From: Candidatus Poseidoniaceae archaeon
GTDB taxonomy: Archaea > Thermoplasmatota > Poseidoniia > Poseidoniales > Poseidoniaceae
Direction of reading: 5' to 3'
Assembly: GCA_943789275.1 (NCBI GenBank)
Contig: CALSTM010000003.1
Location: 570,001-602,000 of the forward strand
DNA length: 32,000 bases
This document shows, in pieces, positions 5,092 to 26,643 of the stretch (its first letter is position 1; the number at the start of each line of letters is the position of its first letter). Below the pieces are notes generated by a model. It was given only the letters and a program-made list of their open reading frames with translations, ran no database searches and was not told the DNA's origin. The position numbers and the translations under genes are program-made.

Positions 5092-5470
5092 AGCAAGCCA
5101 AGGCTGCTGAAGAGAAGGCTGCTAAGGAAGCCAAAGCACAAGCTGATGCTGACGCAAAGGCTGCCAAGCAAGCCAAGGCTGCTGAAGAGAAGGCTGAGAA
5201 GGAAGCTGAGAAGCAAGCCAAGGCCCAAGCCGATGCAGATGCCAAGCAAGCCAAGGCTGCTGAAGAGAAGGCTGAGAAGGAAGCTGAGAAGCAAGCCAAG
5301 GCCCAAGCCGATGCAGATGCCAAGGAAGCCAAAGCACAAGCTGATGCTGACGCAAAGGCTGCTAAGGAAGCCAAGGCTGCTGAAGAGAAGGCGGCTAAGG
5401 AAGCCAAGGCTGCTGAAGAGAAGGCTGAGAAGGAAGCTGCTGCCAAGAAGAAGGCTGAGAAGAAACCAGC
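4948..5470 (+). repeat. Ala/Lys/Glu/Gln-rich low-complexity helical region of protein A (contains frameshift 2 and a perfect 78-bp tandem duplication)
   Basis: AKQAKAQADADAKEAKAAE... composition. Units 5169-5246 and 5247-5324 are identical. Confidence 0.85.
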
Positions 5471-6086
5471 ATCGAAGGAAGTCAAGAAAAAGGAAGAACT
5501 CAAGCGGGTTCAAGAACGCTCGGAAACGATTGACTTTTCGATTCTTGGAACAGCCAAGGCAAGCGACAAAGACGACCTTCAAGTCATGAAGGGTATTGGC
5601 CCATTCATTGAAGAAAAGCTCAATGCGCTCGGAATCTACACTTACCTACAAGTCTCGAAGATGACCTCAAAACTTGAAACAGACGTCAACGAGGCCATCG
5701 AGTTCTTCCCTGGCCGTGTCAAGCGAGACCAATGGGTCAACCAGGCGAAGATTTTGCTCGGTGAGGACGTGAAACTCGATGAGAAGGCACTCAAGCAAGC
5801 CGAAGACCTCGAACGAATCTCCAAGAAGGCTGAGTCAATTGACTTCGCTACGCTTGGTGTTGCAAGCGCTTCCGAGAAGGACTCGCTGCAGACAATCAAA
5901 GGGATTGGTCCGTTTATTGAAGAGAAGTTGAATGCGCTTGGTATTTACACCTTCGAACAAGTTGGAAACATGACGCCTGATATTGAAGAACAGGTCAACA
6001 AGGCCATCGAGTTCTTCCCAGGCCGTGTCAAGCGAGACCAATGGGCGAAGCAGTCAAGGGCTCTTCACGAACAAACTACTAAGTGA
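5091..6086 (+). CDS. Surface protein A, fragment 3 of 3: rest of Ala/Lys/Glu-rich helix plus two C-terminal helix-hairpin-helix modules
   Basis: Frame 0 has no ATG/GTG/TTG before 5586, which explains ORF track 5586..6086. From 5091 it translates as KQAKAAEEKAAKEAKAQADADAK..., continuous with fragment 2 and collinear with the gene B C-terminus. Stop TGA is at 6084-6086. Confidence 0.8.
   Translation, partial: KQAKAAEEKAAKEAKAQADADAKAAKQAKAAEEKAEKEAEKQAKAQADADAKQAKAAEEKAEKEAEKQAKAQADADAKEAKAQADADAKAAKEAKAAEEKAAKEAKAAEEKAEKEAAAKKKAEKKPASKEVKKKEELKRVQERSETIDFSILGTAKASDKDDLQVMKGIGPFIEEKLNALGIYTYLQVSKMTSKLETDVNEAIEFFPGRVKRDQWVNQAKILLGEDVKLDEKALKQAEDLERISKKAESIDFATLGVASASEKDSLQTIKGIGPFIEEKLNALGIYTFEQVGNMTPDIEEQVNKAIEFFPGRVKRDQWAKQSRALHEQTTK
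5571..6068 (+). other. Two tandem helix-hairpin-helix modules (COG3743/NuoE C-terminal-extension-like) of protein A
   Basis: The pattern L[QK].[IM]KGIGPFIEEKLNALGIYT..Q......[DE]....AIEFFPGRVKRDQW..Q[AS] occurs twice. It matches my memory of the L..I.G[IV]GP..E..L...GI..F.Q[IV]A...........F.GR[IV].R[DE].W..QA motif family. Confidence 0.55.
5589..6053 (+). repeat. 465-bp tract 100% identical to 26149-26613 (copy 1)
   Basis: Line-by-line comparison at offset 20,560 bp found no mismatch. Flanks diverge immediately: 5576, 5579 and 5588 upstream, and 6054 onward downstream. Confidence 0.95.
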
Positions 6087-15100: not shown

Positions 15101-18100
15101 CACCATCGCTGCCTGCTGGTCTATCTTTTGATACATCATCCGGTACGATTTCAGGCACCCCGGCAGCGGTAACAGCATCAGCAACATACACAGTGACTGC
15201 AACCAACACCGGTGGTAGCGATTCTGCGACTATCACGATTCAGGTCAACGATGTGGCCCCTTCCTCTGTATCCTACAGCGGAAGTCCATTCACCTTGACC
15301 AAGGATACGACTATGGCTCCATCTGCACCAACCGTGAGCGGTGGCACAGTCATCACTTGGGCAGTATCCCCATCGCTTCCAGCAGGACTCTCCCTGAGCA
15401 CCTCTACTGGTGTAATTTCTGGAACGCCAACAGCGATCACTGCATCAGCATCCTATACCGTGACTGCAACCAACACCGGAGGTAGTACTACTGCTACAAT
15501 CACTGTTATCGTCAACGATGTTGCTCCTTCATCGGTCACCTACAGCCCGAGTTCGCTCACTTTGACCAAAGACCAAGCAATGTCCGCTGCAACGCCTACT
15601 TCAAGCGGTGGTGCTGTCGTCACATGGGCAATTACTCCATCTCTTCCGACAGGACTTGCCTTCTCGACATCAACAGGTACGATTTCTGGAACACCAACTG
15701 CGTTATCTTCTTCGGCGACATATACCGTGACTGCAACCAACACCGGTGGTAGTGCAACCGCCACATTGACGATTGAGGTAAACATCGCTGCTCCAACTTC
15801 AGTTACCTACAGCCCGAGTTCCTTTACACTCACCAAAGATGTCGCCATGACAACGGTCACGCCGACTGCCAGTGGTGGAACCATCACATCGTGGTCTATT
15901 TCTCCAACGCTTCCAGCAGGTCTGTCCTTTGACACTTCGAACGGTGCAGTGAGTGGTACGCCAACAGCTGTTTCTTCCTCTGCAACCTACACCGTGACAG
16001 CAACCAACGCAGGTGGCAGCGGAACCGCAACACTGACCTTCCAGGTCAACGATGTAGCACCGTCTTCTATTGCCTACAGTCCAAGTTCAATCTCGTTAAG
16101 CAAAGACTCGCCTATGACTGCAGTTACCCCAACTGCGAGTGGCGGTGCAGTCGTTTCTTGGTCGATCTCACCAACACTCCCGGCAGGTCTGTCCTTCGAT
16201 ACTTCAACGGGTACAATTTCTGGAACCCCAACAGCAATCACTGCTTCAGCAATTTATACCGTTATTGCAACCAACTCCGGAGGCAGTGCTTCGTCTACAG
16301 TGACCATCGTGGTCAACGATGCAGCACCATCTTCAGTATCGTACAGTCCGAGTTCCTTTACCTTGACAATTAACAACGCCATGACATCGGTTACTCCAAC
16401 TGCGAGCGGTGGAACCGTCACTTCTTGGACGATATCCCCTACGCTCTCATCGGGTCTCTCTTTCGACACATCAACTGGAACCATCAGTGGAACTCCAACA
16501 GCGGTGTCCTCGTCCACGGTTTACACTATCACGGCTACGAACGCCGGTGGAAGCGGTACTGCTACCGTAACGATTCAAGTGAACGATGTAGCTCCTTCGG
16601 GAATTACTTACACTCCAAATTCGTTCACACTTGCGAAAGATTCTGCTATGACAACAGTTACTCCAACTTCGACCGGCGGTACTGTCGTATCATGGTCTGT
16701 CTCACCAACGCTTCCTGCCGGTTTGTCTCTTGACACATCCACTGGAGCCATTTCAGGTACTCCAACGGCAATTTCTTCCAGTGCGACATACACAGTCACT
16801 GCGACCAACAGCGGTGGAAGCGCAACGGCAACAGTGACGATTCAAGTCACGGTAGCTGCGCCTTCTTCAATCGCCTACAGTACGAGTTCATTCACCTTGA
16901 CGAAAGATGTCGCAATAACAGCCGTCACACCTACGTCAAGCGGTGGAACGGTTTCTTCATGGTCGATTTCTCCAACACTTCCTGCAGGTCTTGCTTTCTC
17001 GACGACAGACGGAACAGTTTCAGGAACACCGACCGCGATTTCCGCATTAACCTCATACACAGTGACTGCCACCAATCAAGGTGGTAGCAGTACTGCCACA
17101 TTGACGGTTCAAGTGAACGATGTTGCACCATCTTCTATTGCCTACAGTCCAAGTTTCCTCACATTGACAAAGGACACTCCAATGGTGACTGCAACGCCAA
17201 CATCGAGCGGAGGAACTGTTACATCATGGTCGATTTCGGCAACACTTCCTGCGGGCCTTTCACTGGATGCATCAACCGGTGGAATTTCTGGAACGCCAAC
17301 AGCAACCTCTTCTGCGGTAACATACACGGTAACAGCGACCAACACAGGAGGCAGTTCTACCACTACAGTTACGATTTTGGTTAACGATGCGGCCCCAACC
17401 TCAGTTTCCTACAGTCCAAGTTCATCGATCTTGACAAAGGGTAACGCTATGACCTCCGTCACTCCGACATCGAGCGGCGGTACCGTTACTTCATGGGCAA
17501 TTACTCCATCCCTTCCGGCAGGTTTGTCTTTCTCGACTTCGACCGGTGCGATTGGTGGAACGCCTCAAGCAGTATCCGCCTCGACAACATATACCGTTAC
17601 CGCATCCAACGCCGGTGGCAGCGATACGACAACCGTAACAATCCAGGTCAATGATGTCGCTCCATACTCAGTTTCGTACAGCGGTACACCGTTTACTCTG
17701 ACCAAAGGTTCTGCAATGACCACCGCCACGCCATCTGCAAGCGGTGGTGCTGTTGATTCATGGTCGGTTACACCTCAGCTCCCGGCTGGTCTAACTTTGG
17801 ACACCTCGACCGGTACGATTTCCGGTACGCCTGCAGCAGTAACTTCCTCTGCCAGCTACACCGTCACCGCAACCAACACCGGTGGTAGTTCTACTGCAAG
17901 TGTAACCATTGTTGTCAACGATGTCATTCCTTCATCAATTACGTACAGTGGAAATCCGTTTACTCTGACCAAGGGCTCTCTGATGACTGCGGACACTCCA
18001 ACATCGAGCGGTGGCACTGTTGTTTCATGGTCCGTTTCACCAACGTTGCCTGCTGGACTTTCCTTTGACACCTCGACTGGTACTATTTCTGGAACGCCAA

Positions 18101-21100
18101 ACGCAATCACTGCATCTGCTACATACACCGTTACCGCAACCAATACTGGCGGTAGTGCAACCGCTACGCTGACGATTATTGTCAACGACGCACCACCATC
18201 TTCAGTAGCCTACAGCAGCAGTCCATTCACTTTGACGAAAGATGTTGCAATGACAACGGCCACTCCAACTTCGAGTGGAGGTAGTGTTGACTCATGGTCG
18301 ATTACACCAACCCTCCCTGCTGGCTTATCGTTCGATACTTCGACTGGAGCCATCTCCGGAACCCCAACAGCAATCACATCCTCTGCCACCTACACTGTAA
18401 CTGCTACTAATGAAGGCGGTAGTGCAACCGCTACGGTGACGATTATCGTCAACGATGCCGCCCCATCGTCACTCACATACAATCCAAGTTCATTCAACTT
18501 AGCGAAAGGTACTGCAATGACCACCGTTACTCCAACATCGAGCGGTGGAGCGATCACCTCCTGGACGATTTCATCAACGCTCCCAGCAGGTCTTTCCTTC
18601 GACACTTCGACTGGAGCAATTTCCGGCACACCAACAGCAATTACTGCTTATGCTTCTTACACCATTACTGCAAGCAACACGGGCGGTAGTGATACTGCGA
18701 CAGTGACGATTATTGTCAACGATGCAGCACCGTCTTCCATCACGTACAGTGGTAGTCCGTTTTCCTTGACCAAGGGAGTTGCCATGACCTCGGCTACACC
18801 AACAGCAAGCGGTGGAGCCGTTACTTTCTGGTCGATTTCCCCAACACTTCCAACCGGTCTGTCTTTCGATACTTCGAATGGAACGATCAGCGGAACACCG
18901 GCTGACGTCTCTTCTTCTGCAACCTACACGGTTACAGCAACCAACGCCGGTGGCAGCGATACAGCATCAGTATCGATTCAAGTGAACGATATAGCACCGT
19001 CTTCAGTCGCTTACAGTCCAAGTTTCCTCACATTGACAAAGGATACTCCAATGACGACCTCAACACCGACCTCGAGCGGCGGTACCGTCGTTTCATGGTC
19101 TATCTCCCCATCGCTCACAGCAGGACTTTCCATTGACAGTTCAACTGGAGCGATTTCTGGAACGCCAACCGTAACATCTACCGCAACCACATACACGGTT
19201 ACAGCGACCAATTCCGGTGGCGGTGCTACGACAACAGTAACAATTCTTGTCAACGATGCCGCTCCTTCATCTGTGACATACAGTCCAAGTTCTCACACCT
19301 TGACAAAGGATGTAGCCATGACAACCGTAACCCCAACCGCAAGTGGAGGCGCCGTTACTTCTTGGACAATCTCTCCATCACTCCCAGCAGGTTTGAGTAT
19401 CGATTCATCAACTGGGGCTATCAGTGGAACGCCAACTGCTGTCACTCCTACCACGATCTTCACCGTTTCTGCAACCAATGCCGGTGGCACTGGTACGACA
19501 ACAGTTACGATCCAGGTCAACGATGTAGCGCCTTACGCTGTATCCTACACCGGTACTCCTTTCACTCTGACCAAGGGGTCTGCCATGACAACTACGACTC
19601 CGACCGCTAGCGGCGGTGCTGTTGATTCTTGGTCGATAACACCTGCTCTTCCATCGGGCCTATCCATGGATACGTCAACAGGTGCGCTTTCCGGAACCCC
19701 AATGGTGGTCATTTCTTCCACGACTTATACAATTACCGCCACGAACACCGGCGGTAGTGTTTCCACAACGGTAACTTTTGTTGTCAATGATGTCACTCCT
19801 TCATCAATCGCATACAGCGGTAATCCGTTTACCCTGACCAAAGACATCGCCATGACTGCATCGACGCCTACTTCCAGTGGTGGCGATGTTGTAACTTGGC
19901 AAGTTTCGCCAAGTCTTCCAACAGGTCTCATCTTTGACACTTCGACCGGTGAAATTTCCGGAACGCCGACTGTGATCACGTCTTCTGCAGCATATACCGT
20001 GACAGCCACCAATACGGGTGGTAGTGCAACAACAACAGTGACCATCGTTGTTAACGATGCAGCACCTTCGTCTGTTGCCTTCAGTGGAAACCCATTCTCA
20101 TTGACGAAAGATGTCACCATGACGACAGCTACTCCAACCGCCAGCGGCGGTGCAATCACCTCCTGGTCGGTTACTCCTACGCTCCCAGCAGGCTTGTCTT
20201 TTGACACTTCAACAGGGGCGATTTCCGGAACGCCGACAGCAATCACATCTTCTGCCGCTTACACGGTAACTGCAGTCAACACAGGCGGTAGCGATTCGGT
20301 CACAATTACGATTGAAGTGAACGATGTTATACCTTCATCAATTACCTACAATCCAACTTCCTTCACTTTAATCAAAGACTCGGCAATGACATCAGTGACT
20401 CCAACATCAAGTGGCGGTGCTGTCACTTCATGGACGGTATCTCCATCGCTCCCGGCAGGTCTCTCTCTTGATTCTTCGACAGGAGAAATTTCAGGAACGC
20501 CAACGGCGATTACGGCTTACGGAACGTACACAATTACTGCAAGCAATACGGGTGGCAGTGCAACGGCATCGGTCACGATTCTGGTCAACGACGCAGCTCC
20601 ATCTTCGCTTGCGTACAGTGCCAGTCCGTTCACGTTGACGAAAGGCTCCGCAATGACATCCGCTACACCAACCTTCAGCGGTGGAACTCCAACATTCTGG
20701 GCGATCTCCCCAACGCTCCCAGCTGGTCTTGCGTTCGACACATCAACAGGTACTATATCCGGAACACCAACCGCAGTATCTTCCTCTGCAACATATACGC
20801 TAACTGCGACCAACGCCGGTGGCAGTGACAGTACAACGTTTACCCTACAAGTTAACGACATACCTCCATCGTCGGTATCCTACAGTCAGAGTTTCTTCTC
20901 TTTGGCAAACGGTACGACGATGACTGATGAAACACCATCTACAACAGGTGGAACCGTCACCTCTTGGACGATTTCTCCTGCGCTTCCAGCAGGTCTAACC
21001 TTGTCAGCCACAACAGGTGTCATCTCAGGTACGCCTACGACGACATCCTCTGCAACAACTTACACCGTAACAGCGACCAATTCCGGTGGTGGCGCTACGA

Positions 21101-24100
21101 CAACCTTCACACTTCTCGTGACCGTTGCTCCTCCATCTTCAGTGTCGTACAGTCCGAGCTCCTTTACCTTGACAATAAACAACGCCATGACAACGGTCAC
21201 CCCAACTGCGAGCGGTGGTGAAGTCACCTCTTGGTCGATCACACCAACGCTTCCTGCGGGTCTATCGTTTGACCCTTCAACCGGTAATATCAGTGGTACA
21301 CCAACCGCCGTGTCACCTTCAACATCGTACACCGTTACAGCAACCAATCAAGGAGGAAGCGATACTGCAACAGTGACAATCCAAGTCAACGATGTCACTC
21401 CTTACTCGATTGTATACAGTGGAACTCCGTTCACTTTGACGAAAGGTACAGCCATGACATCTGTGACACCAACCAACAGCGGTGGTTCAGTTGATACCTG
21501 GTCGATAACCCCTGCTCTTCCATCAGGCCTGTCCTTGGATACTTCGACCGGTACTCTTTCTGGAACTCCAGGAGTGGTTTCTTCATCTACTACCTACACA
21601 ATTACCGCCGAAAACACCGGTGGTAGTTCGACCGTAACGGTGAGCATCGTCATCAACGACGTTATTCCTTCGGCAATTACATACAGTGGAAATCCGTTTA
21701 CCCTGACTAAAGATACAGCTATGACCACCTCTACTCCAACCGCGAGTGGCGGTAACGTCACGGGTTGGTCGGTCACACCAGAGCTCCCAGCAGGTCTTTC
21801 CTTCGACACCTCTACTGGTGCAATTTCTGGAACTCCGACCGCAATCACTTCATCTGCTTCATACACAGTGACGGCAACCAATACTGGAGGAAGTGCAACG
21901 ACTACCGTGACCGTTGTGGTCAACGATGTCATACCATCATCTCTTGATTACAGTGGAAGTCCATTTGCACTGACGGTAGGGACAACGATGACTGCGAACA
22001 TTCCTACATCTAACGGCGGTGCTGTCACTTCATGGACGGTATCTCCAACCCTCCCAGCAGGTCTCTCTCTTGATTCGACGACAGGAGAGATTTCAGGAAC
22101 GCCAACAGCGATTACTTCATCCGCCACATACACGGTGACTGCAAGCAACACTGGTGGCAGCGACTCAGTCGCTATCACTCTGGTTGTTAACGATGTGACT
22201 CCATCATCCGTCGTCTACGGTGGAAGTCCTTACGTCCTTACGAATAATTCCATCATGACCGCAGACACACCGACTTCGAGTGGAGGATCAGTAGTTTCGT
22301 GGACGATTTCCCCGTCGCTTCCAGCAGGTCTTACCTTGGACAGTTCAACCGGTGAAATCAGTGGAACCCCTACTGAACTCTCTTCGCTATCGACTTACAC
22401 GGTAACAGCAACCAATACTGGAGGCAGTGCAACGGCTACCGTGACCATTGTGGTCAACGACGTAGTTCCAACGGTTTCTTACTCACCAGATGACCTGAGC
22501 ATGACCAACAACACGGTAAGCAGCGACCTACCACTTGCGCCGACATTGACCGGTGCTGGTGAAGTAGTCTCTTGGACCATAAGCCCGGCATTGCCAAATG
22601 GACTTGCGTTTGACACCTCAACCGGTGTGCTTAGCGGAACTGCTATGGAATTACTCGCCCGCACGATGTTTACCATCAACGCAACGAACAGCGGTGGAAC
22701 TGCAACAACATATGTGAACATCACAGTTGTTGATTCAATTCCAACCGTGACGTACCTACCTGACGACTTGAGTATGACCAACGACACGGCAAGCGTAGAT
22801 TTGCCTCTTGCACCGACATTGACCGGTGCAGGTGAAATTGTCTCCTGGACCATCAGTCCAGCTCTACCAAATGGCCTTACGTTTGACACCTCAACTGGTG
22901 TTCTTAGCGGAACACCAATCGAATTATTCAATCGCACTATGTTCACTGTGAATGCAACGAACACCGGTGGAACCGCGACTGCGTACATCAACATCACTGT
23001 GCTTGACAGCGTTCCGATTGTGGAGTATGTCCCAAGTGATATCGAATTGCTCAGTAATTCCAGTGTTGTCGATATTGTTCCTCTTTCCACCGGTGGAGCT
23101 GTTCTGCAATGGTCGATTACACCTGAACTTTCGCCGGGTCTTTCGTTTGACACCTCAACAGGTCGTATCAGCGGTGTCCCTGCTGAAATTAGCAACCAAA
23201 CGCTCTACACAATCACTGCATCCAATGATGATGGAAGTATAATGGCATACGTAAACATCACCGTTGAAGACACTGTTTACGATACAACTGCTGGCCCGAT
23301 CTACATGCTGGATAATACGACCATCAATGCTATCGCTCCGATCTCAACCATAAGTGGTTCTCAGTTTGAGATTCATCCTGCACTACCACAAGGATTGATG
23401 TTCGGTGAGTCGAATGGAACGATATACGGCACTCCTACTGAAGTTATTGGTCTTACGAACTTTACCATCTATTCGAACTCGAGCCTGTTCAACGACAGTT
23501 TCAAAGTGCAACTTCAAGTTCTCGCCGACACCGATGGCGATTCTATGCCTGACCAATTGCCTGAGAACTACAACTCTACAGGCGGCCTCGTCGAAGACTT
23601 GGACGATGACGGCGATGGTTTCACTGATGCCGATGAAGAAGATTGTCTTTCAGCCTCGCTCGACTTGAATTCCGTGCCACTTGACCTCGATGGGGACAAT
23701 GTGTGTGACGCTCTCGATGACGATATCGACGGCGATGGTCTGCCCAACAGCGTTGAAGACAACAGCGGTATTTTCACGTCGGTCAACAGTACAGGAACAG
23801 ACCCATTGAATGCAGATACAGACGGAGATGGAATCTGTGACGGACCAACAGCCATCAACGGAACTTGCACTCTGGGCCCAGATGCATTCCCGAACGACAA
23901 ATCCGCATCCATCGACACCGACGGTGATGGAATGCCGGACGAATTAAACGGCACCTCGACCAGTACTCCGCCTCTTGTCGAGGATACTGACGATGATGAC
24001 GATTCCGTTCTCGATGTTGATGATGCTTTCCCACTTGATGAAAACGAAACCGTCGATACAGATGGTGATGGAACCGGAGACAACGAAGACACCGACGATG

Positions 24101-26643
24101 ACGGCGATTCAATACTCGACGTCGATGATGCTTTCCCACTTGATGAAAACGAAACCGTTGATACCGATGGTGACGGAACCGGAGACAACGAAGACACTGA
24201 CGATGACGATGACGGATGGTCAGATACCAATGAAAGTGCATGTGGTACTGACGCTCTAAGTAACGCCAGCACTCCTGTAGACACCGATTCAGACCTCATA
24301 TGTGATTCATTGGATGAACTGTTGGACCTACCGTTCAACCTCACTTACCCATCAAACAACTTGACGCTTATGATTGGTGAGGAAATGACTCCACTGCTTC
24401 CAAACATCACCGGTGCTGGTGAAGTCGAAACTTGGGAACTCGAAGGTGAACTACCTGATGGTTTGGTCTTCGGATGGAGTCCTGCTCGTGATGCACAACT
24501 GGATGGAAGTATCCGAGGAACGCCTACAGTGGAATGGGACCTGACGACGTACACCATTTGGGGTAACAACTCAGGATACAGCCAATCGTACGTGGTAACT
24601 CTTGGAGTAGAGACACCTGAACTGACAACGGACTCGGACGATGATAGTAACGATTCAGACTCGAGTTCGATGTACGCTCTATGTTGCCTACCGCTTCTCC
24701 TGTTGCTCCTCCTTGTCTTCCTCCTTCGCCGAAAGAAGTCAGTTCTACTCGACGCAGAGCCAGAACACACAACTTCCAAGCCGAAGTGCAAGAGTGGTTC
24801 AGGTACTCGAGAAGACCCATTCGTGGTTACGCCACTGACCGATGTCACATCTGGATCTCTCGTCTTCAGTAAGGAAGCATTCACGACCAAGGAAGTGGAG
24901 CCTTCTGGAGCATACGATGCTGGAGACGAATACAACTCAGATAACGAAGGCCGATTCAAGGTTGTCAACCACCACATTGACGCTGATGAGTTGGAGGGTG
25001 AGGATGTTGGACTCACACGCCAACTCATTTCCGATGAAGACGGTGTACTCAAGTATCAACTGGCCTTTGATGACCGTGACGTTCCTTCCGATGCCTCGGA
25101 ATCTTACGAAACGCTGTTCAAGGTAGGAAATGGCTCTGTTTACTTCAAGTGGGCTGTTGAAATAGCAAGCGATAAGAAATCTAAGAACAAGTCGAAAAAG
25201 AAGGCTAAAGTTGCCGCTAAGGACGATGGAGAAACACTGGACAAGGCTCAAATTATTGCTGAGGCAACCGGTCGTTCAGTTGAGTCCATTGTTGAAGACT
25301 TGGAAGATGACGGTATAGTGAATCTATCAAATGAATCCAATGAACAGGCTGAAACCGACGCAAAATCTGCAAAGAAAGCCAAGGCAATGGCCGAAGCGGA
25401 TGCTAAGGCTGCTAAGGAAGCCAAGGCAAAGGCCGAAGCAGATGCCAAGGCTGCAAAGGATGCCAAGGCACAGGCCGAAGCCGATGCCAAGGCCGCCAAG
25501 GAGGTCAAGGCAAAAGCCGAAGCAGATGCCAAGGCCGCTAAGGATGCAGAAGCTAAGGCAAAAGCAGAAGCGGACGCTAAGGCTGCAAAGGAAGCCAAGG
25601 CACAGGCCGAAGCCGATGCCAAGGCTGCCAAGGAAGCTAAGGCAAAGGCAGAAGCCGATGCCAAGGCCGCTAAGGAAATCCAAGCTAAAGCAGAAGCTGA
25701 GGCTAAGGCCGCCAAGGATGCTAAAGCCAAAGCGGAAGCTGAAGCAAAGGCTGCCAAGGAAGCCAAAGCCAAGGCAGAAGCAGAGGCAAAGGCTGCGGCT
25801 GCGGCTGCTAAAAAGCAAGCAACAAAGAAACCTGTAACACAGGAAGTCAAGAAGCAGGAAGAATTGAAGCGAGTCAAATCTCGCGCAGATACCATTGACT
25901 TTAAGACTCTAGGAAAAGCCACAACTTCGACTTTGAAGACTGAAGTTAAGAAAGGTGCAACGACTTTGCAAGTATCTGATGCTTCCGAATTCGAAGATTC
26001 AGGTTCCGCTGCCATCACCGATGAAAGCGGTAGTTCAGTCATCTCATGGACCGGCAAGGACGGTAACGCTCTCACCGGTGTTAAAGGCGTAACTCGTGTC
26101 TTTGGTACAGCTACCGTGGTAATGGTCAAGGACGATCTCCAAGTCATCAAGGGTATTGGCCCATTCATTGAAGAAAAGCTCAATGCGCTCGGAATCTACA
26201 CTTACCTACAAGTCTCGAAGATGACCTCAAAACTTGAAACAGACGTCAACGAGGCCATCGAGTTCTTCCCTGGCCGTGTCAAGCGAGACCAATGGGTCAA
26301 CCAGGCGAAGATTTTGCTCGGTGAGGACGTGAAACTCGATGAGAAGGCACTCAAGCAAGCCGAAGACCTCGAACGAATCTCCAAGAAGGCTGAGTCAATT
26401 GACTTCGCTACGCTTGGTGTTGCAAGCGCTTCCGAGAAGGACTCGCTGCAGACAATCAAAGGGATTGGTCCGTTTATTGAAGAGAAGTTGAATGCGCTTG
26501 GTATTTACACCTTCGAACAAGTTGGAAACATGACGCCTGATATTGAAGAACAGGTCAACAAGGCCATCGAGTTCTTCCCAGGCCGTGTCAAGCGAGACCA
26601 ATGGGCGAAGCAGGCTCGTGAATTGCACAGTAACAAAAAGTGA
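6142..26643 (+). CDS. Giant (6,833 aa) type-I membrane surface protein B: signal peptide, 64 tandem He_PIG/cadherin-like Ig domains, TSP3 block, TM helix, long cytoplasmic tail with coiled-coil-like helix and 2 HhH modules
   Basis: Single frame-1 ORF from ATG 6142 to TGA 26641-26643. The N-terminus has a Lys-containing n-region plus hydrophobic SVILSLLMISMSLSAGIV. Positions 6454-23523 hold 64 units of 87-92 aa; units 7-60 are exactly 89 aa (267 bp). The unit core motif is FTLTK...M...TPT.SGG.V.SW..SP.LP.GL......TG.ISGTPT......YTVTATN.GG......TI.VND. Positions 23524-24335 are Asp-rich D.D.DG..D loops. Positions 24336-24610 are a divergent Ig-like domain. The TM helix at 24673-24726 is followed by RRKK. 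Confidence 0.9.
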   Translation: MHGADALLPLTLKANKTASNGSNSLKSVILSLLMISMSLSAGIVQSSPSHETLEKSSSELSLSTISDSVSSGLAELSSLLGLVEDQPAELEQSNADAMLTGGRSVPSVSYSPSTFNLVRNTAMSDQTPTSSGGTVTSWSISPTLPSGISISSSTGTISGTPTVISASTSYTVTATNGAGSDTATITISVTDALPVIVYSPNTFTEAVGTAMTSVTPTSYAGTVDSYSISPSLPPGLSLDTSTGTVSGTPTAVSSSTSYTVTATNSAGTDTASLTIVVNDVAPTSISYSPNTFTLTKGTLISTVTPTSSGGAVTSWTISPSLPAGLSLASSDGAISGTPTEVSSLQTYTVTGTNTGGSATAEITIQVNDVAPIIGYPTTSYTLVKGSAMSSPATPTSTGGTVVTWDVSPTLPSGLTISSSTGVISGTPTTVTSSAVYTVTATNTGGTDTATVTIQVNDVQPLIGYSPSSILLSKGTTMSPASPTLYGQGQVDSWSVSPSLPAGISLDSSTGIITGMPTTISPSATYTITATNTGGTDTATLTITVNDATPSIAFSTNSFTLTKGTAMTTTTPSSTGGAVVTWSISPSLSAGLSFDSSTGTLSGTPTVVSASTVYTITATNTGGSDSATVTIVVNDIAPSAIAYSPSSFTLTKDSAMTAATPTSSGGTVVSWAVSPSLPAGLLLDTSTGEISGTPTAVTSSATYTVTATNTGGDATTTVTIVVNDVIPSSVSYSDSPFTLTKDSLMTASTPTYSGGTVISWAVSPSLPAGLAFSTSTGEISGTPSAVTSSATYTITATNTGGDATTTVTIVVNDIIPSSVSYSGSPFTLTKDSLMTASTPTYSGGTVISWAVNPSLPAGLVLDTSTGEISGTPTAVTSSATYTITASNTGGSATTTVTIVVNDIIPSSVTYSPNSFTLTKDSSMTATTPTASGGPVVSWAVSPSLPAGIVIDSSTGEISGTPTAVTSSATYTITATNTGGSATTTVTIVVNDIIPSSVAYSPNSFTLTKDSSMTATTPTSSGGPVVTWTVSPTLPAGIVIDSSTGEISGTPTAVTSSATYTITATNTGGDATTTVTIVVNDIIPSSVSYSDSPFTLTKGTTMTASTPTSSGGTVISWAVSPSLPAGLAFSTSTGEISGTPSAVTSSATYTITATNTGGDATTTVTIVVNDVIPSSVSYSGSPFTLTKDSAMTAATPTSSGGTVVSWAVSPSLPSGLVIDSSTGVISGTPTAITASATYTITATNTGGDATTTVTIVVNDIIPSSVSYSGSPFTLTKGTTMTASTPTYSGGTVISWAVNPSLPAGLVLDTSTGEISGTPSAVTSSATYTITATNTGGDATTTVTIVVNDIIPSSVTYSPNSFTLTKDSSMTATTPTSSGGPVVSWAVSPSLPAGLVLDTSTGEISGTPTAVASSATYTITATNTGGDATTTVTIVVNDIIPSSVSYSDSPFTLTKGTTMTASTPTSSGGTVISWAVSPSLPAGLAFSTSTGEISGTPSAVTSSATYTITATNTGGDATTTVTIVVNDVIPSSVSYSGSPFTLTKDSAMTAATPTSSGGTVVSWAVSPSLPAGLVIDSSTGVISGTPTAVTSSATYTVTATNTGGSSTATVTIVVNDVIPSSVSYSDSPFTLTKDSLMTASTPTYSGGTVISWAVSPSLPAGLAFSTSTGEISGTPSAVTSSATYTITATNTGGDATTTVTIVVNDIIPSSVTYSPNSFTLTKDSVMSATTPTYNGGTVVSWAVNPSLPAGLAFSTSTGEISGTPTSVTSSATYTVTATNTGGSATTTVTIVVNDIIPSSVTYSPNSFTLTKDSVMSATTPTYNGGTVVSWAVNPSLPAGLAFSTSTGEISGTPTSVTSSATYTVTATNTGGSATTTVTIVVNDIIPSSVTYSPNSFTLTKDSVMSASTPTYNGGTVISWAVSPSLPAGLAFSTSTGEISGTPTAVTSSATYTVTATNTGGDATTTVTIVVNDIIPSSVAYSPNSFTLTKDSSMTATTPTASGGPVVTWTVSPTLPAGIVIDSSTGELSGTPTAVTSSATYTITATNTGGSATTTVTIVVNDIIPSSVSYSDSPFTLTKDSLMTASTPTYSGGTVISWAIDSTLPAGLAFSTSTGEISGTPSAVTSSATYTITATNTGGSATTTVTIVVNDIIPSSVAYSPNSFTLTKDSSMTATTPTASGGPVVTWTVSPTLPAGIVIDSSTGEISGTPTAVTSSATYTVTATNTGGSATTTVTIVVNDIIPSSVAYSPNSFTLTKDSSMTATTPTSSGGPVVSWAVSPSLPAGIVIDSSTGEISGTPTAVTSSATYTITATNTGGDATTTVTIVVNDVIPSSVSYSGSPFTLTKDSAMTAATPTSSGGTVVSWAVSPSLPAGLVIDSSTGVISGTPTAITASATYTITATNTGGDATTTVMIVVNDVAPSSITYSPSSLSLNKDLTMTAATPTSSGGAVVSWTISPTLPAGLSFDASTGTISGTPTTITSSAAYTVTATNTGGSATATITIVVNDAAPSSITYNPSSFTLTKGTAMTSVTPTSSGGTVTTWSVSPPLPSGISIDSSTGQISGTPTAVVSSAAYTVTATNAGGSDTATVTIVVNDVAPSSIFYSGNPFTLTKDSTMPSATPSSFGGTVISWSISPTLPAGLVIDASTGVISGTPTAVTSSATYTVTATNSGGSDSTTITVQVNDVIPSSVSYSGSPFTLTKDAAMAPAAPTASGGTVITWAVSPSLPAGLSLSTSTGVISGTPTAITSSATYTVTATNSGGSATATITVVVNDVIPSSITYSPSSFTLTKDSAMTAVTPSSNGGTVETWSVSPSLPAGLAFSTSTGEISGTPTAVTSSASYTVTATNTGGSATTTVTVVVNDIIPSSVAYSPSSFTLTKDSAMTTATPTSNGGTVISWAISPAVPAGLAFSTSTGAISGTPTEITASATYTVTATNTGGSATTTVVIVVNDVAPSSVFYSGSPFTLTKNSAMTSATPSAFGGTVVSWSVSPSLPAGLSFDTSSGTISGTPAAVTASATYTVTATNTGGSDSATITIQVNDVAPSSVSYSGSPFTLTKDTTMAPSAPTVSGGTVITWAVSPSLPAGLSLSTSTGVISGTPTAITASASYTVTATNTGGSTTATITVIVNDVAPSSVTYSPSSLTLTKDQAMSAATPTSSGGAVVTWAITPSLPTGLAFSTSTGTISGTPTALSSSATYTVTATNTGGSATATLTIEVNIAAPTSVTYSPSSFTLTKDVAMTTVTPTASGGTITSWSISPTLPAGLSFDTSNGAVSGTPTAVSSSATYTVTATNAGGSGTATLTFQVNDVAPSSIAYSPSSISLSKDSPMTAVTPTASGGAVVSWSISPTLPAGLSFDTSTGTISGTPTAITASAIYTVIATNSGGSASSTVTIVVNDAAPSSVSYSPSSFTLTINNAMTSVTPTASGGTVTSWTISPTLSSGLSFDTSTGTISGTPTAVSSSTVYTITATNAGGSGTATVTIQVNDVAPSGITYTPNSFTLAKDSAMTTVTPTSTGGTVVSWSVSPTLPAGLSLDTSTGAISGTPTAISSSATYTVTATNSGGSATATVTIQVTVAAPSSIAYSTSSFTLTKDVAITAVTPTSSGGTVSSWSISPTLPAGLAFSTTDGTVSGTPTAISALTSYTVTATNQGGSSTATLTVQVNDVAPSSIAYSPSFLTLTKDTPMVTATPTSSGGTVTSWSISATLPAGLSLDASTGGISGTPTATSSAVTYTVTATNTGGSSTTTVTILVNDAAPTSVSYSPSSSILTKGNAMTSVTPTSSGGTVTSWAITPSLPAGLSFSTSTGAIGGTPQAVSASTTYTVTASNAGGSDTTTVTIQVNDVAPYSVSYSGTPFTLTKGSAMTTATPSASGGAVDSWSVTPQLPAGLTLDTSTGTISGTPAAVTSSASYTVTATNTGGSSTASVTIVVNDVIPSSITYSGNPFTLTKGSLMTADTPTSSGGTVVSWSVSPTLPAGLSFDTSTGTISGTPNAITASATYTVTATNTGGSATATLTIIVNDAPPSSVAYSSSPFTLTKDVAMTTATPTSSGGSVDSWSITPTLPAGLSFDTSTGAISGTPTAITSSATYTVTATNEGGSATATVTIIVNDAAPSSLTYNPSSFNLAKGTAMTTVTPTSSGGAITSWTISSTLPAGLSFDTSTGAISGTPTAITAYASYTITASNTGGSDTATVTIIVNDAAPSSITYSGSPFSLTKGVAMTSATPTASGGAVTFWSISPTLPTGLSFDTSNGTISGTPADVSSSATYTVTATNAGGSDTASVSIQVNDIAPSSVAYSPSFLTLTKDTPMTTSTPTSSGGTVVSWSISPSLTAGLSIDSSTGAISGTPTVTSTATTYTVTATNSGGGATTTVTILVNDAAPSSVTYSPSSHTLTKDVAMTTVTPTASGGAVTSWTISPSLPAGLSIDSSTGAISGTPTAVTPTTIFTVSATNAGGTGTTTVTIQVNDVAPYAVSYTGTPFTLTKGSAMTTTTPTASGGAVDSWSITPALPSGLSMDTSTGALSGTPMVVISSTTYTITATNTGGSVSTTVTFVVNDVTPSSIAYSGNPFTLTKDIAMTASTPTSSGGDVVTWQVSPSLPTGLIFDTSTGEISGTPTVITSSAAYTVTATNTGGSATTTVTIVVNDAAPSSVAFSGNPFSLTKDVTMTTATPTASGGAITSWSVTPTLPAGLSFDTSTGAISGTPTAITSSAAYTVTAVNTGGSDSVTITIEVNDVIPSSITYNPTSFTLIKDSAMTSVTPTSSGGAVTSWTVSPSLPAGLSLDSSTGEISGTPTAITAYGTYTITASNTGGSATASVTILVNDAAPSSLAYSASPFTLTKGSAMTSATPTFSGGTPTFWAISPTLPAGLAFDTSTGTISGTPTAVSSSATYTLTATNAGGSDSTTFTLQVNDIPPSSVSYSQSFFSLANGTTMTDETPSTTGGTVTSWTISPALPAGLTLSATTGVISGTPTTTSSATTYTVTATNSGGGATTTFTLLVTVAPPSSVSYSPSSFTLTINNAMTTVTPTASGGEVTSWSITPTLPAGLSFDPSTGNISGTPTAVSPSTSYTVTATNQGGSDTATVTIQVNDVTPYSIVYSGTPFTLTKGTAMTSVTPTNSGGSVDTWSITPALPSGLSLDTSTGTLSGTPGVVSSSTTYTITAENTGGSSTVTVSIVINDVIPSAITYSGNPFTLTKDTAMTTSTPTASGGNVTGWSVTPELPAGLSFDTSTGAISGTPTAITSSASYTVTATNTGGSATTTVTVVVNDVIPSSLDYSGSPFALTVGTTMTANIPTSNGGAVTSWTVSPTLPAGLSLDSTTGEISGTPTAITSSATYTVTASNTGGSDSVAITLVVNDVTPSSVVYGGSPYVLTNNSIMTADTPTSSGGSVVSWTISPSLPAGLTLDSSTGEISGTPTELSSLSTYTVTATNTGGSATATVTIVVNDVVPTVSYSPDDLSMTNNTVSSDLPLAPTLTGAGEVVSWTISPALPNGLAFDTSTGVLSGTAMELLARTMFTINATNSGGTATTYVNITVVDSIPTVTYLPDDLSMTNDTASVDLPLAPTLTGAGEIVSWTISPALPNGLTFDTSTGVLSGTPIELFNRTMFTVNATNTGGTATAYINITVLDSVPIVEYVPSDIELLSNSSVVDIVPLSTGGAVLQWSITPELSPGLSFDTSTGRISGVPAEISNQTLYTITASNDDGSIMAYVNITVEDTVYDTTAGPIYMLDNTTINAIAPISTISGSQFEIHPALPQGLMFGESNGTIYGTPTEVIGLTNFTIYSNSSLFNDSFKVQLQVLADTDGDSMPDQLPENYNSTGGLVEDLDDDGDGFTDADEEDCLSASLDLNSVPLDLDGDNVCDALDDDIDGDGLPNSVEDNSGIFTSVNSTGTDPLNADTDGDGICDGPTAINGTCTLGPDAFPNDKSASIDTDGDGMPDELNGTSTSTPPLVEDTDDDDDSVLDVDDAFPLDENETVDTDGDGTGDNEDTDDDGDSILDVDDAFPLDENETVDTDGDGTGDNEDTDDDDDGWSDTNESACGTDALSNASTPVDTDSDLICDSLDELLDLPFNLTYPSNNLTLMIGEEMTPLLPNITGAGEVETWELEGELPDGLVFGWSPARDAQLDGSIRGTPTVEWDLTTYTIWGNNSGYSQSYVVTLGVETPELTTDSDDDSNDSDSSSMYALCCLPLLLLLLLVFLLRRKKSVLLDAEPEHTTSKPKCKSGSGTREDPFVVTPLTDVTSGSLVFSKEAFTTKEVEPSGAYDAGDEYNSDNEGRFKVVNHHIDADELEGEDVGLTRQLISDEDGVLKYQLAFDDRDVPSDASESYETLFKVGNGSVYFKWAVEIASDKKSKNKSKKKAKVAAKDDGETLDKAQIIAEATGRSVESIVEDLEDDGIVNLSNESNEQAETDAKSAKKAKAMAEADAKAAKEAKAKAEADAKAAKDAKAQAEADAKAAKEVKAKAEADAKAAKDAEAKAKAEADAKAAKEAKAQAEADAKAAKEAKAKAEADAKAAKEIQAKAEAEAKAAKDAKAKAEAEAKAAKEAKAKAEAEAKAAAAAAKKQATKKPVTQEVKKQEELKRVKSRADTIDFKTLGKATTSTLKTEVKKGATTLQVSDASEFEDSGSAAITDESGSSVISWTGKDGNALTGVKGVTRVFGTATVVMVKDDLQVIKGIGPFIEEKLNALGIYTYLQVSKMTSKLETDVNEAIEFFPGRVKRDQWVNQAKILLGEDVKLDEKALKQAEDLERISKKAESIDFATLGVASASEKDSLQTIKGIGPFIEEKLNALGIYTFEQVGNMTPDIEEQVNKAIEFFPGRVKRDQWAKQARELHSNKK
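8044..13383 (+). repeat. Homogenised core of the array (units 7-26): a few unit subtypes shuffled, ~99% DNA identity between copies
   Basis: 9313-9817 vs 10381-10885 (offset 1068 = 4 units) shows 3 mismatches in ~505 bp by eye. Units 19 and 20 differ at 2 of 267 positions. Confidence 0.85.
17122..22737 (+). repeat. Three copies of a 7-domain (1869-bp) super-repeat (units 41-47, 48-54, 55-61)
   Basis: Units 41/48/55, 42/49/56 and 43/50/57 resemble each other far more than their neighbours (e.g. VAPY.VSY.GTPFTLTKG.AMT recurs only every 7th unit). Shadow ORFs 17142 and 19011 are 1869 bp apart. Confidence 0.75.
23524..24335 (+). other. TSP3-like Asp-rich Ca-binding block of protein B
   Basis: DTDGDSMPD, DLDDDGDGFTD, DTDGDGICDG and similar loops. 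It includes an internal 105-bp tandem duplication (24001-24105 / 24106-24210). Confidence 0.75.
24673..24726 (+). other. Transmembrane helix of protein B
   Basis: YALCCLPLLLLLLLVFLL is preceded by the acidic DSDDDSNDSDSSS and followed by RRKK. The positive-inside rule places the C-terminal tail in the cytoplasm. Confidence 0.85.
25390..25815 (+). repeat. Ten tandem 14-residue (42-bp) units AEA[DE]AKAAK[ED]AKA[KQ] (one 16-residue unit)
   Basis: Unit boundaries checked at 25390 and 25564. Units differ at synonymous positions (gcc/gca/gct, aag/aaa). Confidence 0.85.
26131..26628 (+). other. Two tandem helix-hairpin-helix modules (COG3743/NuoE C-terminal-extension-like) of protein B
   Basis: Same motifs as 5571-6068. 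Each module is preceded by a short ...IDF..LG.A... element. Confidence 0.55.
26149..26613 (+). repeat. 465-bp tract 100% identical to 5589-6053 (copy 2)
   Basis: See copy 1. Confidence 0.95.

What the first reader, a model, noticed from the sequence alone, without database searches (positions are those of the whole stretch)
24670..26643. Candidate novel transmembrane connector: giant adhesin-like ectodomain coupled to a cytoplasmic rigid helix and HhH end-piece
The tail begins after one TM helix with RRKK on the inner side and holds four elements in order. (1) A conserved juxtamembrane domain. (2) A Lys-rich linker followed by ~150 aa of 14-residue-periodic AEADAKAAKEAKAK; this is two heptads per unit, compositionally like TolA domain II or ER/K single alpha-helices, so ~20 nm if fully helical. 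(3) A small beta-rich insert. (4) Two HhH modules of a family (COG3743, the C-terminal extension of some NuoE proteins) annotated as FEN1-like H3TH, i.e. potentially nucleic-acid or partner binding. Protein A carries the same tail. The giant prokaryotic adhesins I know of end in short anchors, not in a ~640-aa structured cytoplasmic domain. In logic, not homology, this resembles integrin or LINC-type outside-in connectors. It could tether or signal between an attached surface and the nucleoid or a cytoplasmic partner. I know of no description of this architecture.
Basis: partly seen in the sequence, partly recalled or inferred. Interest (0 to 1): 0.85.

Follow-up and report, generated by a model that had tools for sequence, protein, structure and literature searches.

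The report
Cytoplasmic tail of archaeal giant adhesin
A 6,833-residue surface fibre protein of a marine Group II archaeon crosses the membrane once and ends in a conserved 640-residue intracellular tail (a beta-sandwich, a long charged helix, a small barrel and two helix-hairpin-helix modules) that probably moors the fibre to something inside the cell, a design not described before for prokaryotic adhesins.

Summary
Window 24670-26643 is the C-terminal 657 aa of one intact ORF (6142-26643, 6,833 aa). It has a signal-like N-terminus, about 60 He_PIG Ig repeats, TSP3 repeats and one Leu-rich TM helix followed by RRKK.

The tail contains:
- a new beta-sandwich domain (AF2 pLDDT 93);
- a 160-aa Ala/Lys/Glu repeat with 14-residue period and i/i+4 charge pairing;
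- a small beta-barrel;
- two HhH modules of the family found at the C-terminus of alphaproteobacterial NuoE, S2, L21 and Urf1/protein-O.

The cassette is lineage-wide. It occurs in 57 genes in 82 fetched loci from Poseidoniales (MGII) and MGIII genomes. Of these, 51 read in one frame and 53 have a TM just upstream.

Inside topology is supported by three lines:
- more K+R on the C side of the TM in 44 of 50 genes;
- a K+R jump from 1.5% (ectodomain) to 10.8% (juxtamembrane domain) in 41 of 41 genes;
- the cytoplasmic hosts of the HhH module.

- Spacer length varies from 50 to 378 aa, and MGIII uses (EP)n instead, so it is not a fixed ruler.
- No nuclease domain is present.
- DNA binding is untested and the modules are not basic.
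- Protein A lacks the beta-barrel and is frame-broken.

I read the tail as an intracellular anchoring and docking cassette with an unknown ligand.

The parts
6142..26643 (+). Giant ORF B, 6,833 aa: signal-like N-terminus, about 60 He_PIG Ig repeats, TSP3 repeats, one TM helix and the cytoplasmic tail
6214..6279 (+). N-terminal hydrophobic signal-like segment (residues 25-46)
   Evidence: Hydropathy scan. A similar N-terminus occurs in protein C and in the L009 orthologue.
24673..24726 (+). Single TM helix YALCCLPLLLLLLLVFLL (residues 6178-6195), with conserved Cys-Cys-x-Pro at its outer end
   Evidence: A TM lies just upstream of the JM domain in 53/57 homologous genes.
24727..24738 (+). RRKK basic cluster on the C-terminal (inner) flank of the TM
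   Evidence: At family level, 44/50 genes have more K+R on the C side.
24751..25164 (+). Juxtamembrane (JM) beta-sandwich domain, a new family with no Pfam model
25165..25329 (+). Lys-rich linker (net +7) followed by an acidic segment (net -11)
25330..25809 (+). A/K/E spacer, 160 aa, of which about 140 aa (25367-25796) are the 14-residue (42-bp) repeat, with i/i+4 charge pairs; resembles a single alpha-helix
25810..25911 (+). Basic linker (KKQATKKPV...KRVKSRADTIDF)
25912..26130 (+). Small beta-barrel insert, with no Pfam or PDB sequence relative
26125..26325 (+). HhH module 1 (COG3743 / NuoE-extension family)
26326..26433 (+). Long connecting helix between the two modules
   Evidence: AF2 helix at model residues 158-176
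26434..26643 (+). HhH module 2, short basic end and stop codon
4216..4275 (+). TM helix of protein A (GYICCPLLLLILLAVFLIF)
4294..4710 (+). JM domain of protein A (41% identical to that of B)
4711..5564 (+). A/K/E spacer of protein A, with a frame break at about 5070-5090 and no beta insert
5565..6086 (+). Two HhH modules of protein A. 5567-6053 is 99.2% identical in DNA to 26127-26613.

Best explanation
What it is. The region encodes the intracellular tail of a type-I single-pass giant fibre (adhesin-like) protein of a Poseidoniaceae (Marine Group II) archaeon.

Shown here:
- The ectodomain is about 6,100 aa of Ig-like and Ca-binding-type repeats and is exported.
- One TM helix follows. About 9 residues after it comes a folded beta-sandwich.
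- Next is a long, highly charged, hydrophobic-free Ala/Lys/Glu repeat, most likely a single alpha-helix of up to 24 nm.
- Then come a small beta-barrel and two HhH modules joined by a helix.
- The cassette is conserved across MGII and MGIII genomes.
- It also occurs as a 'tail-only' membrane protein.

Inferred:
- The cassette is an intracellular anchoring and docking device.
- The beta-sandwich under the membrane acts as a stopper that keeps the single helix from being pulled out.
- The extended spacer holds the terminal modules away from the membrane.
- The tandem HhH modules bind an abundant cytoplasmic ligand. Given the HhH hairpins, the nucleoid (DNA) is the first candidate. A protein partner is the main alternative.
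- The 250-nm-scale surface fibre of a cell with no peptidoglycan wall to anchor to (own knowledge; MGII envelope unexamined) would then be moored or positioned from inside.
For: Intact ORF and domain order.

Topology:
- There is a single TM with RRKK on its C side.
- 44/50 homologues have more K+R on the C side, and the TM-to-JM distance has a median of 9 aa.
- K+R is 1.5% in the last ~320 ectodomain residues against 10.8% in the JM domain, in 41/41 genes.
- The HhH module sits on cytoplasmic proteins NuoE, S2 and L21.
- It also sits on Urf1/protein-O, whose TM hairpin has its ends on the cytoplasmic side.

Folded units: JM model pLDDT 93; C-terminal model pLDDT 87.

Spacer: 44 opposite-charge pairs at i/i+4 against 1 at i/i+3, and 3 hydrophobic residues in 160 aa.

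Conservation:
- The C-terminal cassette matched 502 stretches in GTDB species genomes. The best 80 loci were all MGII or MGIII by record title, apart from two contigs binned in bacterial MAGs.
- There are 57 genes with JM plus HhH, of which 51 are in one frame and 53 have a TM.
- Module number varies from 1 to 4.
- The tail-only paralogue shows that the cassette works as a unit without the fibre.
- The HhH cassettes of A and B are 99.2% identical in DNA while their JM domains have diverged. This fits selection for one common ligand.
Against: - No binding partner is known for this HhH family. Both structural papers that include a member call the domain's function obscure or unknown.
- The modules have zero net charge in B.
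- They resemble proven DNA-binding HhH domains only at E 0.2-1.
- Foldseek gave no significant HhH match for the whole C-terminal model.
- Spacer length is not conserved: 50-378 aa, and (EP)n in MGIII. A precise reach is therefore not required.
- The JM fold has relatives in virion fibre proteins, which is an extracellular heritage.
- A single alpha-helix is mechanically soft (own knowledge). It would work as a tether rather than a strut.
- No conserved neighbouring gene for a cytoplasmic partner was found.
Confidence: 0.45

Rival explanations
1. The HhH modules are protein-protein modules rather than nucleic-acid binders. They either self-associate, or dock to a cytoplasmic protein assembly, and so cluster or pattern the giant fibres in the membrane.
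For: - The modules have zero net charge.
- Only one half-module resembles canonical HhH, and weakly.
- The family signature E-x-F-x-G-R-x-x-R-D-x-W-x-x-Q-A is invariant and is not a general HhH feature.
- The module is attached to subunits of large protein complexes: NuoE, S2, L21 and the RC-LH1 protein-O.
- Variable valency (1-4 modules) and the single-module tail-only paralogue suit network formation.
Against: - No partner gene is conserved in the neighbourhood.
- The first hairpin, G-I-G-P, is canonical for backbone-phosphate binding.
- The hosts of the module in bacteria share no obvious common protein partner.
Confidence: 0.3
2. The tail has no specific ligand. It is a bulky, charged intracellular stopper and brush. 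It fixes topology, resists extraction of the single helix, and sets lateral spacing between fibres.
For: - The folded JM domain lies a median of 9 residues from the TM in 50 genes.
- Spacer length and composition are free to vary.
- The spacer is a low-complexity tandem DNA repeat that can easily expand or contract.
Against: - The HhH modules are the most conserved part of the tail, at 70-92% identity across MGII.
- Many columns are invariant.
- The modules are homogenised between paralogues.
- That degree of constraint implies a specific interaction.
Confidence: 0.12
3. The tail is an outside-in signalling device, as in integrins. Load on the fibre changes the state of the tail and is passed to a regulator.
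For: - It is a single-pass connector with structured domains on both sides.
- An HTH_10 regulator gene sits just downstream, here and in 5 fetched loci.
Against: - No kinase, cyclase, receiver or other signalling domain is present.
- The HTH_10 gene is adjacent in only a minority of loci.
Confidence: 0.05
4. The tail is extracytoplasmic. It would span a periplasm-like space, as TolA or TonB do, in a cell with a second envelope layer.
For: - The spacers look like TolA domain II (A/K-rich helix) and like TonB ((EP)n in MGIII).
- The JM fold and the extra He_PIG-like domain have extracellular relatives.
- The MGII envelope has never been imaged in culture (own knowledge).
Against: - With one TM and an exported N-terminal fibre, the C-terminus must be on the opposite side.
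- The positive-inside rule holds in 44/50 genes.
- K+R switches from 1.5% to 10.8% across the TM in 41/41 genes, whereas the phage-type JM relatives keep about 3%.
- The hosts of the module are cytoplasmic.
- The TolA model scores 16.9 bits against a cut-off of 59.45.
Confidence: 0.04
5. The architecture is an artefact: separate genes were fused by misassembly through the 487-bp repeat, or by wrong frame calls.
For: - A 99.2% identical 487-bp repeat ends both A and B.
- Several assemblies split the tail from the fibre gene.
Against: - 51 of 57 homologous genes from independent assemblies read through from TM and JM to the last HhH module in one frame.
- B is open over 20.5 kb.
- The split cases are single frame shifts inside the repeat. 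Two are in polished long-read assemblies.
Confidence: 0.02

Closest known systems
Urf1 / protein-O / protein-3h of alphaproteobacteria (PDB 8yy9 chain O, 9wqv chain a)
   Same: The C-terminal HhH module is the same family (E 1e-11 with one sequence, 1e-30 with a profile). The overall logic is also the same: a membrane anchor, a long flexible linker, then this compact domain on the cytoplasmic side. The MGII tail-only paralogue (TM hairpin + linker + one module) is closest in design.
   Different: Urf1 has no ectodomain, no JM beta-sandwich and no beta-barrel, and carries a single module. Its N-terminus plugs into the RC-LH1 complex. The function of its C-terminal domain is unknown, and the domain is not resolved in the maps.
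C-terminal extensions of alphaproteobacterial NuoE, ribosomal S2 and L21, and phasin PhaH (NCBIfam PRK12373, PRK12311, PRK12278, NF045508)
   Same: The module is the same, appended to the C-terminus of the host protein. From memory, not tested here, it follows a low-complexity linker in those proteins too.
   Different: The hosts are soluble or peripheral cytoplasmic proteins of bacteria. Here the host is a giant archaeal surface protein and the module is in tandem. The full-protein scores are far below the family cut-offs, so only the extension is shared.
TolA and TonB
   Same: These have a TM anchor, an extended spacer (A/K-rich helix in TolA, (EP)n(KP)n in TonB) and a terminal globular binding domain. 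That layout matches the tail, and especially the tail-only paralogue.
   Different: They face the periplasm rather than the cytoplasm. There is no homology (TolA model 16.9 bits against cut-off 59.45). They are energised by ExbBD or TolQR, which are absent here.
Giant bacterial adhesins (Ebh of Staphylococcus, LapA, SiiE, MpIBP)
   Same: They are megadalton-scale fibres of tandem Ig-like repeats with Ca-binding elements. Ebh also has a C-terminal TM followed by a cytoplasmic stretch (own knowledge).
   Different: Those are held by the cell wall, the outer membrane or a secretion pore. Any cytoplasmic part is, from memory, shorter and not known to contain folded adaptor domains. None carries this JM domain or COG3743 modules.
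ER/K-type single alpha-helices (myosin VI/X, caldesmon) and synthetic (EAAAK)n linkers
   Same: They share high charge, i/i+4 opposite-charge pairing and the absence of a hydrophobic seam.
   Different: This repeat is much richer in Ala (47%) and contains no Arg. Its helicity is not measured, and its length is not conserved in the family.
Integrin-talin and LINC (SUN-KASH) connectors
   Same: They follow the same logic: an extracellular or luminal binding part is coupled through one membrane pass to an internal structure.
   Different: There is no sequence or fold relationship. The internal partner here is unknown.
ComEA
   Same: It is a membrane-anchored protein whose functional end is an HhH domain.
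   Different: The ComEA domain is outside the cytoplasm and is a proven DNA binder. Similarity to this module is marginal (E 0.42).

Membership tests
COG3743 / NuoE C-terminal extension HhH module | Local sequence match to the C-terminal ~85 positions of PRK12373, and to Urf1 | tested here: met
   The match to PRK12373 positions 302-386 of 400 has E 3e-27, with two stretches. Urf1 chains match at E 9e-12 and 1e-11, and at 2e-30 and 1e-29 with a profile.
Helix-hairpin-helix superfamily | h-x-x-h-x-G-h-G hairpin between two helices | tested here: met
   L-x-x-I-K-G-I-G-P is present in both modules. In AF2 it lies between helices. Across 14 family members, Cdd1 matched 13, HHH_5 9 and IMS_HHH 9. 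For the whole tail, Cdd1 scores 26.7 bits against a cut-off of 25.5.
Helix-hairpin-helix superfamily | Non-sequence-specific DNA binding through the hairpins | not testable with these tools
   This needs EMSA or anisotropy measurements. The modules have zero net charge in B.
FEN1-like 5' nuclease (H3TH) | PIN-like or XPG nuclease domain with catalytic acidic residues next to the H3TH | tested here: not met
   Neither Pfam nor NCBIfam finds a nuclease domain anywhere in the tail. The database name 'flap endonuclease-1-like' is an automatic label.
DUF4332 (PF14229) | Score at or above the gathering cut-off of 23.2 bits | tested here: not met
   The best score is 20.9 bits, for the protein A modules. 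7 of 14 family members match at E up to 1 (best E 0.01).
Single alpha-helix (SAH) domain | High E/D and K/R content with i/i+4 pairing and no hydrophobic seam | tested here: met
   There are 44 pairs at i/i+4 against 1 at i/i+3. Charged residues are 45% and hydrophobic residues 3 of 160.
Single alpha-helix (SAH) domain | Monomeric, stable helix in solution | not testable with these tools
   This needs circular dichroism, SAXS or AUC.
TolA | Match to TIGR02794 at or above 59.45 bits | tested here: not met
   The score is 16.9 bits, a compositional match to the A/K-rich part only.
He_PIG giant surface protein | Tandem He_PIG Ig domains after a signal sequence | tested here: met
   The first 500 aa score He_PIG E 3e-44 with 4 stretches. 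The segment before the TM scores 2e-8. The repeats are visible throughout the translation.
Type-I single-pass membrane protein with tail inside | N-terminal export signal, exactly one TM helix, and more positive charge on the C-terminal flank | tested here: met
   This is a computational test only; no experiment is available.
PGF-CTERM / archaeosortase-type anchor | Sorting motif + TM + short basic end at the extreme C-terminus | tested here: not met
   638 residues follow the TM. The tail gives no NCBIfam sorting-signal hit.
PapD-like / ASH / MSP Ig-like fold (for the JM domain) | Significant structural superposition | tested here: inconclusive
   PDB Foldseek hits are weak: E 4e-5 to 1e-2 and TM 0.35-0.53. 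The only convincing relative is a cyanophage fibre-like protein, at E 1.4e-8, TM 0.69 and rmsd 2.9 A.

The most novel reading that the evidence does not exclude
The tail is a prokaryotic counterpart of LINC or integrin connectors. A 6,000-residue extracellular fibre would be tied through one membrane pass, a spring-like single helix and tandem HhH modules to the nucleoid. The COG3743 module would then be a general 'hitch-to-the-chromosome' device, also used by ribosomal proteins, complex I and photosynthetic core complexes in alphaproteobacteria.
Probability: 0.15. Interest if true: 0.85.

Novelty: new variant of a known kind. Interest (0 to 1): 0.6.

Why it matters
Marine Group II archaea are among the most abundant microbes in the surface ocean and are uncultured. 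Their giant surface proteins have been noted only as 'adhesion' genes (PMC6461757).

A conserved, structured intracellular cassette on these fibres implies that the cell holds or positions them from inside. That would be a new solution to anchoring in a cell without a wall.

It also puts a spotlight on a widespread HhH module of unknown function. Recent cryo-EM papers on photosynthetic complexes met this module and could not explain it. Tractable alphaproteobacteria carry the same module, so the question of what it binds can be tested directly.

Tried and rejected
- The diverse JM alignment had no conserved stretch usable for a locus scan. I used the C-terminal alignment instead.
- The exhaustive search profile included the N-terminal TSP3 and TM columns of P0001. 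I re-scored its hits with a trimmed JM profile.
- Literature searches for COG3743, DUF4332, H3TH, the NuoE extension and MGII giant proteins found no functional study.
- The third homology search, with bacterial modules, returned mostly short fragments named NuoE or 'endonuclease' and added little.
- A TolA relationship was rejected on score.
- A nuclease reading was rejected because no catalytic domain is present.
- The recurring 259-aa 'proteins' are not separate genes. They are tail ends split from fibre genes by frame shifts in the repeat.
- The sequon count in the tail (5 against 1.8 expected) was too small to use for topology.
- A search for a conserved downstream partner gene found only another fibre gene, LysE, HTH_10 and housekeeping genes.

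Full report
**What is in the window**

- The finding covers the last 657 codons of a single open reading frame, 6142-26643 on the + strand, 6,833 aa.
- The protein starts with a hydrophobic signal-like segment (residues 25-46). It continues with about 60 He_PIG Ig-like repeats and a block of TSP3-type Asp-rich repeats.
- It has exactly one further hydrophobic segment, residues 6178-6195 (YALCCLPLLLLLLLVFLL). RRKK follows it directly.
- Two more fibre genes flank it. Protein A runs from the window start to 6086. Protein C runs from about 28458 to beyond the window end.
- Downstream lie an HTH_10 regulator gene and a LysE-type transporter gene.
- Relatives carry names such as Candidatus Poseidoniaceae, Poseidonia and Thermoplasmatota.
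- The same gene order (tail, HTH_10, LysE) recurs in Poseidoniaceae genomes. The source is therefore a Marine Group II archaeon.

**The four elements of the tail**

1. **Juxtamembrane (JM) domain, 24751-25164.**
   - It is 41% identical to the copy in protein A and 44-57% identical to two database fragments.
   - It has no Pfam or PDB sequence match.
   - An exhaustive profile search found 165 cluster representatives (that profile also covered TSP3/TM columns of P0001, and a trimmed JM profile re-matched 111 of the 150 listed). In most of those where upstream sequence is present, the domain follows a Leu-rich TM within about ten residues.
   - AlphaFold2 on a 32-sequence alignment gives an all-beta sandwich with pLDDT 93.1 and pTM 0.86.
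   - Solved structures match only at the level of generic Ig-like sandwiches: GH123 N-domains, pilins, and PapD-like, ASH and MSP domains, at TM 0.35-0.53.
   - The one convincing structural relative is a fibre-like protein of Synechococcus phage S-CBWM1 (E 1.4e-8, TM 0.69, rmsd 2.9 A).
   - This agrees with distant sequence hits in 1-2 kaa metagenomic proteins that lack a TM and end in Lcl_C domains.
2. **Linker and repeat.**
   - A Lys-rich linker is followed by a 160-aa repeat (tail residues 221-380).
   - Composition is Ala 47.5%, Lys 24% and Asp+Glu 21%. Identity at lag 14 is 0.75.
   - There are 44 opposite-charge pairs at i/i+4 against one at i/i+3, and three hydrophobic residues.
   - The DNA shows a 42-bp unit in 10.1 copies.
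   - This is the pattern of a single alpha-helix. The rise would be 24 nm. Helicity itself was not tested.
3. **Small beta-barrel, 25912-26130.**
   - AF2 predicts seven strands.
   - It has no Pfam or PDB sequence relative.
   - Fold matches are weak: phage tailspike N-domains and the ATPase crown domains, at E 0.01 or worse.
4. **Two HhH modules, 26125-26325 and 26434-26634, joined by a long helix**.
   - They match the C-terminal extension of alphaproteobacterial NuoE (E 3e-27), S2, L21 and phasin PhaH.
   - They also match Urf1 proteins that have been seen in RC-LH1 cryo-EM structures.

**Topology**

- The architecture (export signal plus one TM) forces the two ends to opposite sides.
- The positive-inside rule holds. 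In 50 homologous genes, the 15 residues before the TM have a mean of 0.5 K+R and 4.5 D+E. The 15 after it have 2.0 K+R. In 44 genes the C side has more K+R.
- Composition switches sharply at the TM. The ectodomain of B has 1% K+R. Across 41 genes, the last ~320 ectodomain residues have 1.5% (maximum 2.1%). The JM domain has 10.8% (minimum 5.3%), and is higher in 41 of 41 genes. The TM-less, phage-fibre-like relatives of the JM domain keep about 3%.
- The HhH module is found on cytoplasmic proteins. It is also found on Urf1/protein-O, whose membrane hairpin has its ends on the cytoplasmic side.

**How general the cassette is**

- The C-terminal 257 aa has 2,060 database relatives at E <= 1e-5. 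It matched 502 stretches in GTDB species genomes. The 80 best loci were all MGIIa, MGIIb or MGIII by record title, apart from two contigs binned in bacterial MAGs.
- In the 82 loci held, I found 57 genes with a JM domain followed by HhH modules. Of these, 51 read in one frame and 53 have a TM directly upstream.
- Domain orders found:
  - 37 genes have the order of protein B (JM, beta-barrel, HhH, HhH);
  - others place an extra HhH right after the JM domain, carry three C-terminal modules, or lack the beta-barrel.
- The many 259-aa 'proteins' in databases are tail ends cut from the fibre gene by a frame shift inside the repeat.
- The spacer varies from 50 to 378 aa (median 208). One larger value comes from a locus where two genes were merged.
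- In MGII the spacer is always A/K/E-rich. In MGIII it is a ~55-aa (EP)n linker, and a K/R-rich He_PIG-like domain sits between the TM and the JM domain.
- Four loci have a 537-aa 'tail-only' gene directly after a fibre gene. It encodes a TM hairpin, a JM domain, an acidic spacer and one HhH module.

**What it most likely does**

- *Shown:* the domain order, the conservation, the inside location (computational), and the strong constraint on the HhH modules. These are 70-92% identical across MGII, with many invariant columns.
- *Also shown:* the HhH cassettes of A and B are 99.2% identical over 487 bp, while their JM domains share no DNA similarity. This looks like gene conversion that keeps one common docking end.
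- *Inferred:* the tail is an intracellular anchoring and docking cassette.
  - A folded domain nine residues below the bilayer would block extraction of a lone helix that carries a fibre of roughly 250 nm. That length is my estimate from about 60 Ig domains.
  - The spacer keeps the end modules away from the membrane.
  - The tandem modules bind an abundant internal ligand.
- DNA is the first candidate ligand because of the canonical G-I-G-P hairpin. The support is weak:
  - similarity to proven DNA-binding HhH domains is marginal;
  - the modules have zero net charge;
  - there is no nuclease domain;
  - the only papers that discuss a family member call the domain's role obscure or unknown.
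- A protein partner or self-association is nearly as likely.
- Confidence: high for the architecture and topology, about 0.45 for the anchoring and docking mechanism, and about 0.25 for DNA specifically.

**Comparison with what is known**

- The module belongs to the NuoE-extension / Urf1 family.
- The combination 'membrane anchor + long linker + this module' already exists in Urf1.
- The layout resembles TolA and TonB turned to the cytoplasmic side, without homology.
- Giant bacterial adhesins are held by wall, outer membrane or secretion pore. I know of none with a folded multi-domain cytoplasmic tail (own knowledge).
- Integrin and LINC systems are analogies only.
- I found no paper describing this tail. 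The main MGII genomics paper mentions only thrombospondin genes as adhesion factors.
- The architecture is nevertheless present in the first MG-II genome, CM001443, unremarked.

**Verdict**

A transmembrane connector with a structured cytoplasmic tail is well supported. A fixed rigid rod and nucleic-acid binding are not established.
- I class it as a new variant of a known kind: a TM-anchored giant surface fibre with a new, conserved intracellular cassette. Interest is moderately high.

Noticed in passing
window 5567-6053 and 26127-26613: This is a 487-bp direct repeat, 99.2% identical (4 mismatches), covering the HhH cassettes of proteins A and B. The JM domains of the same two genes share no DNA similarity. 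It looks like gene conversion between tandem paralogues. It is also a possible trap for assemblers.
   Followed up: partly
window ~2470-2490, ~5070-5090 and ~28900: Single-base frame breaks occur in protein A (two) and protein C (one). The 20.5-kb gene B is intact. These could be real pseudogenisation or consensus errors. The sites are not long homopolymers.
   Followed up: partly
window 24679-24693; homologues in L003-L082: A Cys or Cys-Cys, often followed by Pro, sits at the outer end of the TM helix in 48 of 50 homologous genes (for example YALCCLP and WMWCFPC). Its purpose is unknown. Lipidation, a disulfide link between neighbours, or a processing signal are possibilities.
   Followed up: no
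L054 5821-7431; also L056, L078, L079: A 537-aa 'tail-only' gene lies directly downstream of a fibre gene. It encodes an N-terminal TM hairpin, a JM domain, an acidic Ala/Glu spacer (K 4%) and a single HhH module, with no ectodomain. Its design resembles alphaproteobacterial Urf1.
   Followed up: partly
L062 (Marine Group III CG-Epi1), ORF 3-5762: In the MGIII variant, the TM is followed by a K/R-rich He_PIG-like Ig domain (Pfam E 7.8e-4, below cut-off), then the JM domain. A TonB-like (EP)n linker replaces the A/K/E helix.
   Followed up: partly
window 24751-25164; P0253, P0254, P0261, P0202, P0241: The JM domain has distant relatives, sometimes in tandem, near the N-terminus of 1-2 kaa TM-less proteins ending in Lcl_C domains. 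It also has a structural relative in a Synechococcus phage S-CBWM1 fibre-like protein. This suggests exchange of the module between marine viruses and MGII archaea.
   Followed up: partly
window 6280-24672 (ectodomain of B): Lys+Arg are extremely depleted (1% over 6,131 aa). N-x-S/T sequons are enriched in the membrane-proximal 900 aa (29 against 13 +/- 3 expected). They are under-represented in the Ig repeats (33 against 75 expected).
   Followed up: partly
window 26913-27602 (+) and 27597-28427 (-): An HTH_10 regulator gene and a LysE-type transporter gene follow the tail. The window's LysE gene has relatives downstream of the tail in 15 fetched loci, and its HTH_10 gene in 5.
   Followed up: partly
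window 11-2815 and 28834-31998: Proteins A and C both carry RCC1-type beta-propeller repeats next to He_PIG domains. Protein C also has a run of '...DSxxxxHIAY...C.SSC...SSW' repeats. The locus is therefore a tandem array of three different giant surface proteins.
   Followed up: no
L009, L028, L038, L039, L063, L066-L069, L074-L079: In a subset of homologues, an extra HhH module sits about 35 residues after the JM domain, before the spacer. The tail then has modules at both ends of the helix.
   Followed up: no
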